DNA from: a virus
Lineage: Duplodnaviria > Heunggongvirae > Uroviricota > Caudoviricetes
Virus record (IMG/VR): IMGVR_UViG_2541047901_000004
Span: 1 to 9,606 of that record
Strand: one strand, 5' to 3'
DNA length: 9,606 bases
Below, in pieces: positions 8,587 to 8,836 of this stretch. The notes under the pieces were generated by a model that was not told where the DNA came from, did no database searches, and saw only the letters and a program-made list of their open reading frames with translations. Within the stretch, counting starts at the first letter, position 1, and every line of letters begins with the position of its first letter. Made by a program: the position numbers and the translations under genes.

Positions 8587-8609
8587 GGCGGCGATAGCCG
8601 CCTTTTTTT
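8587..8609 (+). terminator. Rho-independent terminator after the capsid gene
   Basis: Stem GGCGGC (8587-8592) / GCCGCC (8597-8602), loop GATA, followed by T7 (8603-8609). Confidence 0.8.
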
Positions 8610-8610
8610 G

Positions 8611-8836
8611 CGGGTCCTCCCGGTGTAGTGACCTGCCACGGGGCGGGAGCGTCGCGGAAAAAGGCTAGTTTTTGCATTTTTATTCGTCATCATCATCTTT
8701 CTATGGTATTGAATTTTAAGTGTTTTTATTTTTGATATGTTAATTTTGCTTGTTTTATGCTCAACATATAGCGCATTTTTTGACCTCTTCTGAAAGTTGT
8801 TCGCAAGATGCATGTTTAAAACATTCTGGAGCGGGT
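8611..8836 (+). other. cos: Putative lambda-like cos region: copy B of the 70-bp repeat, with a cosN-like core at 8641-8652, plus an AT-rich cosB-like segment up to terS
   Basis: The core ACG-GGGCGGGAGCGT-CGCGG compares with lambda ACG-GGGCGGCGACCT-CGCGG (lambda recalled from memory). GTTTTTATTT lies at +82..+91 from the core start, against +83..+92 in lambda. TTCGTCAT is also shared. The terS ATG is at +197, against Nu1 at +191 in lambda. Confidence 0.55.

What the first reader, a model, noticed from the sequence alone, without database searches (positions are those of the whole stretch)
8587..8836. Lambda-like cos site with a divergent cosN core upstream of a Nu1-like terS
The segment ccACG-GGGCGGGAGCGT-CGCGGaaaaagg (core at 8641-8652) resembles lambda ttACG-GGGCGGCGACCT-CGCGGgttttcg. 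Eight of 12 core positions match, and both flanks are identical.

Downstream landmarks sit at nearly lambda-identical distances from the core:
- GTTTTTATTT at +82..+91, against +83..+92 in lambda. This is the R3-R2 interval where the IHF site I1 lies.
- A shared TTCGTCAT.
- The terS start at +197, against Nu1 at +191.

This suggests cos-type packaging by a satellite-encoded terminase. The overhang and cosB have diverged from lambdoid helpers, which would give the satellite packaging specificity. My lambda sequence is recalled from memory, not aligned computationally.
Basis: partly seen in the sequence, partly recalled or inferred. Interest (0 to 1): 0.7.

Follow-up and report, generated by a model that had tools for sequence, protein, structure and literature searches.

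The report
Satellite cos site, helper-matched cut site
The segment is a real lambda-type DNA packaging (cos) site on a 10.4-kb E. coli phage satellite that has its own small terminase but no large one, so this is an ordinary but nicely dissectable case of a satellite borrowing its helper phage's cutting enzyme.

Summary
Window 8612-8657 aligns to authentic lambda cos: cosQ GGGTCCT, then ACG|GGGCGGGAGCGT|CGCGG against lambda ACG|GGGCGGCGACCT|CGCGG.

- **Termini.** GenBank records of phages cdtI and Tritos begin exactly at this 12-mer. Hafnia phage yong2 begins right after its own 12-mer.
- **Conservation.** cosQ, cosN and the first 23 bp to their right are almost invariant in about 70 distinct satellite and phage sequences, while the flanks vary.

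- The element (int, AlpA, primase, SSB, protease/capsid fusion, DUF1441 TerS) is a PICI-type satellite. It has no TerL and no portal.
- The "divergent" overhang is not satellite-specific. It matches a large group of lambdoid phages (mEp460, phi458, cdtI, Tritos) that carry gpA-type TerL; they are the probable helpers.
- Specificity lies in cosB. Three cosB types track three TerS N-terminal domain types without exception, including in recombinants.

It has the same cosQ/cosN, but its cosB is about 93% identical to cdtI/Tritos and it has no TerS gene.

The satellite TerS lacks the conserved acidic C-terminal tail of the phage proteins, so how it engages TerL is open. No termini were measured. 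This is a new member of a known kind and of moderate interest.

The parts
8584..8609 (+). Intrinsic-terminator-like hairpin (GGGCGGC-GATA-GCCGCC + T7) ending the capsid gene, immediately left of cosQ
   Evidence: Sequence. RNA fold -18.1 kcal/mol, z = -3.0. This segment is variable among satellites, 18 of 28 columns, so it is not part of cos proper.
8612..8618 (+). cosQ heptamer GGGTCCT of cos-B
   Evidence: Identical to lambda 48473-48479 and at nearly the same distance from the overhang, 29 vs 30 bp. Only 1 of 15 columns in 8611-8625 varies among 18 distinct satellite sequences. Conserved in the phage classes.
8636..8657 (+). cosN of cos-B: the 22-bp partly symmetric nicking site CCACG|GGGCGGGAGCGT|CGCGG
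   Evidence: Rotational symmetry 12/22, against 10/22 for lambda. Aligns to lambda cosN. Invariant apart from overhang position 12 across satellites and phages.
8641..8652 (+). Predicted 12-nt 5' cohesive end GGGCGGGAGCGT (nick positions inferred, not measured)
   Evidence: Records of phages cdtI and Tritos start exactly at this 12-mer and end at ...CCTGCCACG. The Hafnia phage yong2 record starts immediately after its homologous 12-mer.
8653..8675 (+). Invariant right flank of cosN, CGCGGAAAAAGGCTAGTTTTTGC, shared by all cosB types
   Evidence: Identical in satellites, phage classes A and B, and cdtI/Tritos. This block follows TerL/cosN rather than TerS type.
8670..8693 (+). R-like repeat 1 of cosB (TTTTGCATTTTTATTCGTCATCAT), a candidate TerS binding site
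   Evidence: Direct repeat with 8744-8767. Both copies change together between cosB types S, A and B. Only 3 of 28 columns in 8670-8697 vary among satellites. Binding is inferred.
8702..8733 (-).
   Evidence: The homologous position has a perfect WATCAANNNNTTR in mEp460_4F5 and in cos-A. In the window's cos-B no match at 1 mismatch or fewer was found. The 2-mismatch core was identified by reading the sequence by eye; no tool call tested it.
8744..8767 (+). R-like repeat 2 of cosB (TTTTGCTTGTTTTATGCTCAACAT)
   Evidence: It is 71% identical to repeat 1 and lies 74 bp downstream.
8796..8836 (+). Conserved terS leader with RBS (GGAG 8 nt before the ATG) and a near-palindrome ATGTTTAAAACAT
   Evidence: Identical between the window and class-B phages. 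Function unknown.
8837..9322 (+). terS: a 161-aa DUF1441 small terminase, a remote Nu1 relative, with an S-type N-terminal wHTH and a divergent C-terminus lacking the acidic tail
   Evidence: Pfam DUF1441, E = 9e-36. PHROG 141 'terminase small subunit', E = 1.6e-56, and PHROG 57 (the Nu1 family), E = 6.7e-7. Alignments. AF2 model pLDDT 81 with a beta-alpha-alpha-beta-beta-alpha N-domain.
9319..9606 (+). orf95, a conserved partner gene downstream of the satellite terS (PHROG 1561, unknown function, basic C-terminus)
   Evidence: Not related to the TerL N-terminus. No PDB match.
6076..6121 (+). Second cos (cos-A): cosQ GGGTCCT 6076-6082 and cosN with overhang GGGCGGGAGCGG at 6105-6116. It is a direct repeat of cos-B, 2,536 bp upstream.
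   Evidence: About 75 bp are nearly identical to 8609-8683.
6117..6310 (+). cosB of cos-A: cdtI/Tritos type, ending at a destroyed TerS start (ATG to GTG). Perfect IHF consensus at 6168-6180 (-). Repeats TTTTCACCTG at ~6199 and ~6279.
   Evidence: About 93% identical to Tritos/cdtI nt 13-200. IHF consensus with 0 mismatches.
6666..8579 (+). ClpP-like prohead protease / major capsid protein fusion gene, lying between the two cos sites
   Evidence: Pfam Phage_capsid_4 and CLP_protease. 56-69% identical to the helper-type prophage homologue.

Best explanation
Window 8612-~8790 is a functional lambda-type cohesive-end packaging site ("cos-B") of a ~10.4-kb PICI-type phage satellite.

**Shown**
- The anatomy is cosQ (8612-8618), cosN (8636-8657) and a cosB stretch ending at the terS gene.
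- Its cosQ/cosN is identical to that of a group of lambdoid phages (mEp460, phi458, cdtI, Tritos) that encode gpA-type TerL.
- cosB type co-varies with the type of TerS N-terminal domain.
- The satellite has no TerL.

**Inferred mechanism**
1. After induction by a helper of this phage group, the satellite excises and replicates as concatemers.
2. Its own Nu1-like TerS binds the S-type cosB, probably at the two R-like repeats 8670-8693 and 8744-8767 that flank an A/T-rich bendable stretch.
3. TerS positions the helper's TerL on cosN.
4. TerL nicks on either side of 8641-8652, giving a 12-nt 5' overhang GGGCGGGAGCGT.
5. DNA is packaged rightward (terS first) until the next cosQ-cosN.

The second site, cos-A (6076-6310), copies the complete cos of cdtI/Tritos-type phages and has no TerS gene. 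It probably lets helpers of that type package the satellite with their own TerS.
For: **Homology to authentic lambda cos.** It includes cosQ at the right distance.

**Termini of public records.**
- cdtI and Tritos start at the 12-mer.
- yong2 starts just after its 12-mer.

**Footprint among 18 distinct satellite sequences.**
- cosQ has 1 of 15 variable columns.
- cosN plus flank has 3 of 40.
- The first R-like repeat has 3 of 28.
- By contrast, neighbouring stretches have 18 of 28 and 20 of 46.
- The same core is invariant in about 50 distinct phage sequences.

**Perfect association of cosB type with TerS N-domain type.**
- It holds in about 80 loci.
- It includes recombinants: L031 and P0011 have an S-type N-domain and S-type cosB, but a phage-type C-terminus followed by TerL.

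**TerS and TerL modules.**
- Phage classes A and B differ in the TerS N-domain and in cosB. Their TerS C-terminal part is identical and their TerLs are 99% identical.
- mEp460 and cdtI TerLs differ essentially only in the first 20 residues. This fits the lambda rule that the TerS C-terminus pairs with the TerL N-terminus.

**Element type.** It fits the PICI core (int, AlpA, primase, capsid, TerS) and lacks TerL, portal and tail genes (PMC10085698).

**Helper link.** Sister satellites with the same packaging module sit inside the terL gene of mEp460-like prophages. Three same-orientation cos sites there share one cosN.

**Precedent.** E. coli PICI EcCICFT073 carries two functional lambda-like cos sites with non-phage cosB (PMC6092414).
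Against: - No packaged-DNA termini, binding data or transfer data exist for this element. The nick positions rest on how other people's phage records were opened, which may follow the lambda convention by analogy.
- The satellite TerS has lost the acidic C-terminal tail. It has also changed several residues that are nearly invariant in phage DUF1441 TerS proteins. It may not recruit TerL in the standard way.
- The IHF-like core in cos-B is degenerate (2 mismatches), although it is perfect in related phages and in cos-A.
- Two same-orientation cos sites 2.5 kb apart could cause premature termination. One of them might be dispensable.
- The R-like repeats are only 71% alike and their role is inferred.
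Confidence: 0.65

Rival explanations
1. cos-B is a real cos site, but the satellite TerS is not a stand-alone initiator. In this reading it acts as a specificity switch or interference factor. It would co-assemble with the helper's TerS through the nearly identical central coiled-coil. The satellite subunits would supply cosB recognition, and the helper subunits would supply the TerL-binding tail. This would be functionally like Rpp of EcCICFT073.
For: - The satellite TerS lacks the acidic tail and has a divergent last ~60 residues.
- Residues ~66-95 (RKAWYQSERERL.FEQETAQLIPA) are almost identical to the phage proteins.
- Rpp-TerS heterocomplexes that retarget packaging are documented in E. 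coli PICIs (background text of 10.1101/2022.09.08.507074).
Against: - There is no evidence of hetero-oligomers.
- The divergent C-terminus is itself conserved among satellites at 96-99%. That could equally reflect a different but functional TerL contact.
- No Rpp homologue was found.
Confidence: 0.2
2. cos-B is an inherited relic that came along with the terS gene from a phage. The satellite would really be packaged from cos-A, the exact copy of a helper cos, and cos-B/TerS would be dispensable or decaying.
For: - cos-A is about 93% identical to a complete phage cos and has a perfect IHF consensus. The IHF-like core of cos-B is degenerate.
- In EcCICFT073, deleting one of the two cos sites did not reduce transfer and even increased it (PMC6092414).
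Against: - cosQ, cosN and R-like repeat 1 of cos-B are far better conserved among satellites than adjacent DNA.
- terS is intact and 96-99% conserved in all 17 satellite loci.
- The regex scan found cos-B in 16 of the 17 satellite loci. It found a second, upstream cos in only 10 of them, and some loci are cut short.
Confidence: 0.1
3. The resemblance to cos is fortuitous. On this view the segment is only a terminator-promoter intergenic region controlling terS.
For: A terminator hairpin lies at 8584-8609. One weak sigma-70-like match lies at 8732-8761, which is no more than chance.
Against: - A 20-mer expected 0.00 times occurs twice in the window.
- It is identical in dozens of phages at the position where their genome records are opened.
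- cosQ is present at the lambda distance.
Confidence: 0.02

Closest known systems
Bacteriophage lambda cos (cosQ-cosN-cosB, Nu1/gpA terminase)
   Same: - Same order and spacing: cosQ GGGTCCT 29-30 bp before a 12-nt G-rich overhang.
- Identical ACG and CGCGG flanks, and 8 of 12 overhang bases.
- Partial two-fold symmetry.
- cosB lies between cosN and a small-terminase gene that starts ~190-197 bp downstream.
- The TerS has an N-terminal wHTH, a coiled coil and a C-terminal part.
   Different: - Four overhang positions differ.
- cosB has no lambda R consensus (CGTTTCC).
- The candidate TerS sites are direct repeats, not inverted ones.
- The IHF core is degenerate and lies ~17 bp closer to cosN.
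- TerS belongs to Pfam DUF1441, not Phage_Nu1.
- The element has no gpA.
cos regions of lambdoid phages mEp460 / phi458 / PhiR47_1 (DUF1441 TerS) and cdtI / Tritos
   Same: - Identical cosQ, cosN and first 23 bp to the right of the overhang.
- TerS is 63-74% identical, and the terS leader is identical in class-B phages.
- cos-A of the window is about 93% identical to the entire cdtI/Tritos cos.
   Different: - Most of these phages have cosB types A, B or cdtI-type rather than S.
- Their TerS ends in a conserved acidic tail and is followed by terL.
- The satellite TerS has a different C-terminus and is followed by orf95.
EcCICFT073, the E. coli PICI with two cos sites and Rpp (Fillol-Salom 2018, PMC6092414; Rpp as summarised in 10.1101/2022.09.08.507074)
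   Same: - It is an E. coli PICI with int-alpA-primase.
- It has a capsid-like gene.
- It has two lambda-like cosN sites whose cosB differs from the helper's.
- It depends on helper terminase.
   Different: - EcCICFT073 has no TerS and retargets the helper TerS with Rpp.
- This element encodes its own Nu1-like TerS and has no detectable Rpp.
- Its cosN is of the mEp460/cdtI type rather than the lambda/phi80 type.
- One of its cos sites is a near-exact copy of a phage cos including cosB.
pac-type SaPIs with TerS_S, and cos-type SaPIbov5 with Ccm
   Same: - Like pac SaPIs, it supplies its own small terminase to work with the helper's large terminase.
- Like SaPIbov5, it uses cos packaging and carries a capsid-protein homologue.
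   Different: It combines the two strategies (own TerS plus cos) in a Gram-negative, lambda-type system. Neither combination has been tested here.
cf-PICIs (EcCIEDL933 type)
   Same: A PICI backbone that encodes its own capsid protein, with cos ends reported for a cf-PICI (10.1101/2025.02.11.637232).
   Different: cf-PICIs carry portal, head-tail connectors, HNH, TerS and TerL in an HK97-like module. This element has only the protease/capsid fusion and TerS.

Membership tests
Lambda-type cos site | cosN resembling lambda's, with partial two-fold symmetry | tested here: met
   8 of 12 overhang bases plus identical ACG/CGCGG flanks. Symmetry is 12/22 against lambda's 10/22. Local alignment z is about 4.4.
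Lambda-type cos site | Staggered nicks giving 12-nt 5' cohesive ends at that position | not testable with these tools
   Indirect only. The cdtI and Tritos records start at the identical 12-mer, and the yong2 record starts right after its 12-mer. No termini have been measured for the satellite.
Lambda-type cos site | cosQ heptamer about 30 bp upstream of cosN | tested here: met
   GGGTCCT at 8612-8618, 29 bp before the overhang. In lambda it is at 48473, 30 bp before. It is conserved in the family.
Lambda-type cos site | cosB with repeated TerS-binding elements between cosN and terS | tested here: inconclusive
   There is no lambda R consensus. Two direct R-like repeats (8670-8693, 8744-8767) co-vary with TerS N-domain type. 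Binding was not tested.
Lambda-type cos site | IHF site (I1) within cosB | tested here: not met
   No WATCAANNNNTTR at 1 mismatch or fewer in 8653-8836. By manual reading, a 2-mismatch core lies at 8702-8714. The homologous position is a perfect site in mEp460_4F5 and in cos-A.
Lambda-type cos site | Cognate large terminase (gpA family) encoded next to terS | tested here: not met
   There is no TerL anywhere in the 10.4-kb element. Related phages have a gpA-type TerL directly after terS.
Nu1 small terminase (Pfam PF07471 Phage_Nu1) | Match to the family profile above threshold | tested here: not met
   Only DUF1441 (PF07278) is hit, even at E <= 10. Lambda Nu1 hits Phage_Nu1 at 2.5e-100.
Nu1 small terminase (remote homology) | Profile-level relationship and an N-terminal winged HTH in the same position | tested here: met
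   - The window TerS hits PHROG 57 (Nu1) at 6.7e-7, and lambda Nu1 hits PHROG 141 at 5.6e-8.
- hhalign pairs residues 10-54 with Nu1 residues 3-50, weakly (E = 0.0086).
- JGI names some homologues 'terminase Nu1 subunit'.
Nu1 small terminase (fold) | Structural match of the DNA-binding domain to Nu1 / MerR-type wHTH | tested here: inconclusive
PICI (SatelliteFinder core set, PMC10085698) | int + AlpA-type regulator + primase-replicase + capsid gene + terS; ~10 kb; no tail, lysis or portal genes | tested here: met
   - Phage_integrase, Phage_AlpA, D5_N/DUF5906 primase, protease/capsid fusion and DUF1441 TerS are all present.
- The RefSeq annotation of the whole island lists nothing else.
- The unit is 10,381 bp between 17-bp repeats.
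PICI | Induction, excision and high-frequency transfer by a helper phage | not testable with these tools
   Circumstantial only. cosN is identical to that of mEp460-group phages, and sister elements are integrated in their terL gene.
cf-PICI | Own portal, head-tail connectors, TerL (and HNH) | tested here: not met
   All are absent from the island.
Rpp-type E. coli PICI | Rpp homologue | tested here: not met
   Neither TerS nor orf95 matches any PDB chain at a meaningful E-value. I recall that Rpp structures are deposited. The other small ORFs were scanned against Pfam only and were not compared with PDB.

The most novel reading that the evidence does not exclude
The satellite runs a two-key packaging system on one shared lock. 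Both cos sites keep the helper group's cosQ/cosN, which is the TerL substrate.
- cos-A is a near-exact forgery of the cdtI/Tritos cosB and is served by that helper's own TerS.
- cos-B carries an S-type cosB read by the satellite's TerS. That TerS has swapped the canonical acidic TerL-binding tail for a different, satellite-conserved C-terminus.

The TerS would then work either through a non-canonical TerL contact or by co-assembling with helper TerS. Either route would let the satellite exploit any helper of this TerL group regardless of the helper's cosB type. Sister elements add a further layer by sitting inside, and interrupting, the helper's terL until they excise.
Probability: 0.3. Interest if true: 0.6.

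Novelty: new member of a known kind. Interest (0 to 1): 0.4.

Why it matters
- **A natural specificity experiment.** This family shares one TerL/cosN with at least four interchangeable cosB/TerS N-domain modules (S, A, B and cdtI-type), and natural recombinants exist. That is a convenient system for working out how Nu1-like small terminases read cosB and hand DNA to gpA-type TerL.
- **An intermediate hijacking strategy.** The satellite has its own TerS, its own capsid protein and two cos sites, but no TerL. That places it between the cos-only/Rpp PICIs and the fully equipped cf-PICIs.
- **Spread of chromosomal DNA.** About 3.5% of complete E. coli genomes (188 of 5,426) carry this packaging module. 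It is therefore relevant to how chromosomal islands spread.
- **Limits.** None of this is conceptually new, and nothing is experimentally shown here.

Tried and rejected
1. **cf-PICI.** Rejected: the island has no TerL, portal or connectors.
2. **orf95 as a TerL N-terminal remnant.** Rejected: no BLASTP similarity to four TerLs.
3. **Rpp-like factor.** No PDB sequence match for TerS or orf95.
4. **Genome-contig scan with the satellite TerS.** It found nothing. The viral-contig scan with an alignment then gave 80 loci.
6. **IHF consensus in cos-B.** None at 1 mismatch or fewer.
7. **Rfam.** No family anywhere in the window.
8. **Promoter scan.** One weak site, no more than chance.
9. **Literature.**
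   - No paper in the library contains the 12-mer.
   - The cdtI phage paper (Asakura 2007) is not held. I could not learn whether its ends were measured.
   - A search for phage Tritos was uninformative.
10. **mEp460_4F5 record.** It opens 5 nt left of the overhang and lacks 3 nt inside cosN. I treated this as an assembly or opening artefact, not as evidence for termini.
11. **Inverted repeat 8600-8612 / 8653-8665.** Dismissed: the left arm is the terminator's T-run and is absent from phages.

Full report
**What the window is.** ORF listing, Pfam scans and the RefSeq annotation of an identical E. coli chromosome were used.
- The genes are a tyrosine integrase (1-1239), AlpA (1650-1859), an Icd-like protein, DUF4222, a D5-type primase (3295-5049) and SSB (5613-6035).
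- They continue with a ClpP-protease/major-capsid fusion (6666-8579), a DUF1441 protein (8837-9322) and a 95-aa ORF (9319-9606).
- In strain IrN the island lies between yljB/cspD and clpS.
- It is bounded by a 17-bp direct repeat, giving a unit of 10,381 bp.
- It has no large terminase, portal, tail or lysis genes.
- This is the core gene set used to define PICI satellites (PMC10085698). It is not a cf-PICI.

**Checking the observation.** I fetched real lambda and compared it with the window.
- Every stated match is real: 8 of 12 overhang positions, and identical ACG and CGCGG flanks.
- GTTTTTATTT is at +82 in the window and +83 in lambda. terS starts at +197 and Nu1 at +191.
- The shared TTCGTCAT sits at +43 in the window and +67 in lambda, so it is not a positional landmark.
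- The similarity continues leftward through cosQ. GGGTCCT lies 29 bp before the overhang in the window and 30 bp before in lambda.
- The local alignment scores 30, against 19.8 +/- 2.3 for shuffles.

**Comparative evidence that it is cos.** A BLAST of 8596-8700 against GenBank phages found 37 records.
- The records of phage cdtI and phage Tritos begin exactly at GGGCGGGAGCGT and end at ...CCTGCCACG.
- Hafnia phage yong2 begins immediately after its own 12-mer, GGGGCAGCGACA. These breaks correspond to the two lambda nick positions.
- I could not establish whether those ends were measured or set by analogy. The cdtI paper is not held.
- In 81 related loci (69 distinct upstream sequences) cosQ, cosN and the next 23 bp are essentially invariant.
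- Among 18 distinct satellite sequences, only 1 of 15 columns varies in cosQ and 3 of 40 in cosN plus flank. By contrast, 18 of 28 vary in the adjacent terminator and 20 of 46 in mid-cosB.

**The overhang is not satellite-specific.**
- The same cosN occurs in mEp460, phi458, PhiR47_1, cdtI, Tritos and many prophages.
- These phages encode a ~700-aa gpA-type TerL directly after terS.
- Overhang position 12 is T in most phages and in this window. It is G in 16 of 17 other satellite cos-B sequences.

**Where specificity lies.** The TerS proteins upstream of these TerLs fall into N-terminal domain types S (the satellite type), A and B, plus a cdtI type.
- Each type goes with its own cosB sequence, with no exception in about 80 loci.
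- Classes A and B share an identical TerS C-terminal two-thirds and 99% identical TerL.
- Recombinants combine the S-type N-domain and S-type cosB with the phage C-terminus and a TerL (L031, P0011, P0016).
- mEp460 and cdtI TerLs are 87.5% identical but unalignable in the first 20 residues.
- This fits the lambda scheme, which I state from established knowledge. In it, the TerS N-domain reads cosB and the TerS C-terminus holds the TerL N-terminus.
- Two direct R-like repeats (8670-8693, 8744-8767) change together between types. They are my candidates for TerS sites, by inference.

**IHF.**
- cos-B has no IHF consensus at 1 mismatch or fewer.
- The homologous position, +62..+74, is a perfect site in mEp460_4F5.
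- The matching position in cos-A, +64..+76, is also perfect.
- In lambda the nearest consensus match, at 79-91, overlaps the T-tract itself.

**Is TerS Nu1-like?**
- By Pfam it is DUF1441, not Phage_Nu1.
- PHROG profiles cross-hit reciprocally at about 1e-7.
- hhalign pairs the N-terminal HTH with Nu1 residues 3-50.
- The AF2 model has a winged-HTH-like N-domain followed by long helices. Fold searches were not significant.
- It is a remote relative, not a family member.
- The satellite TerS differs from about 40 phage homologues in its last ~60 residues and lacks their acidic tail. That divergent end is conserved among satellites.

**A second cos.** The cosN 20-mer also occurs at 6102-6121, with cosQ at 6076-6082.
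- Everything from there to ~6310 is about 93% identical to the complete cos of Tritos/cdtI, up to their TerS start codon.
- In the window that start codon is GTG, and the gene is gone.
- So the satellite carries one forged helper cos without a TerS, and one cos with its own TerS, 2,536 bp apart in the same orientation.
- Ten of the 17 satellite loci also show both sites by a regex scan.
- EcCICFT073 is the precedent for two functional cos sites in an E. coli PICI (PMC6092414).

**Helper link.** Sister satellites with a 95-97% identical packaging module are inserted site-specifically in the terL gene of mEp460-like prophages.
- The left junction covers terL nt 1-999 and the right junction covers nt 987-2103, with a 13-bp overlap.
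- Their integrase is only 22% identical to the window's.
- The junction is covered in 78 of 5,426 complete genomes.
- In that arrangement three cos sites with one cosN lie in the same orientation within 11 kb.

**Verdict.** The claims of a satellite-encoded terminase and a satellite-specific overhang are wrong. The cosB/TerS specificity idea is right in principle but not exclusive to satellites.

The mechanism is inferred, not shown: satellite TerS on cosB, helper TerL on cosN, and 12-nt ends. The odd C-terminus of the satellite TerS keeps a hetero-oligomer or interference model alive. This is a new member of a known kind, namely E. coli PICIs with lambda-like cos, and is of moderate interest.

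Noticed in passing
window 6076-6310: A second complete cos site (cos-A). It has the same cosQ/cosN as the finding, with overhang GGGCGGGAGCGG at 6105-6116. Its cosB is about 93% identical to phages cdtI/Tritos up to a destroyed TerS start codon. It also has a perfect IHF consensus at 6168-6180 and TTTTCACCTG repeats.
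   Followed up: yes
L094 8731-21661 (NZ_AP040249.1); also L015, L016, L024, L027-L029: Sister satellites with the same packaging module are integrated site-specifically inside the terL gene of mEp460-like prophages. The 13-bp core is CTGGATG(G/T)AGGG at terL nt 987-999, and they use a different integrase (22% identity). The junction is found in 78 of 5,426 complete E. coli genomes. Excision should restore terL. I did not check whether this site has been described.
   Followed up: partly
window 8652 and 6116; loci L013-L029: Overhang position 12 is polymorphic (G or T). Most satellites have T in cos-A and G in cos-B, while this window has the reverse. Phages are mostly T. This suggests exchange between the two cos copies; the consequence is unknown.
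   Followed up: partly
L031 599-1090; proteins P0011, P0016: Natural TerS recombinants combine the satellite-type N-terminal domain and S-type cosB with the phage-type C-terminus, and are followed by an intact TerL. The 'satellite' specificity therefore also exists in real phages, including in Salmonella.
   Followed up: partly
window 9319-9606: orf95 (PHROG 1561, unknown function, strongly basic C-terminus) always follows the satellite terS. A 75% identical copy sits 2.4 kb downstream of a different TerS in L030. It could be a packaging accessory factor.
   Followed up: no
L001 1-25 and L006 end (LR595868.1, mEp460_4F5): This phage record is opened 5 nt left of the predicted overhang and lacks 3 nt inside cosN (GGGCGGGAGCG---CGG). 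It may be an assembly artefact at the cohesive ends, but this is unexplained.
   Followed up: no
L093 1-17207 (NZ_CP024240.1, next to tRNA-Ile/mug): Two or three related satellites are nested or in tandem at one site. They show truncated protease/capsid genes, a RepA-helicase replication module, and HEPN and HicB genes. This indicates frequent recombination and cargo exchange in this family.
   Followed up: no
window 6400-6573 (- strand) and 6336-6358: A conserved 57-aa minus-strand ORF (WP_000973802, no Pfam hit) and a terminator-like hairpin GCCGGATTTTCTCCGGCTTTTTT lie between cos-A and the capsid gene.
   Followed up: no
window 8796-8836: The 41-bp terS leader, including the near-palindrome ATGTTTAAAACAT, is identical between the satellite and class-B phages although cosB just upstream has diverged. 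It is possibly a regulatory or translational element.
   Followed up: no
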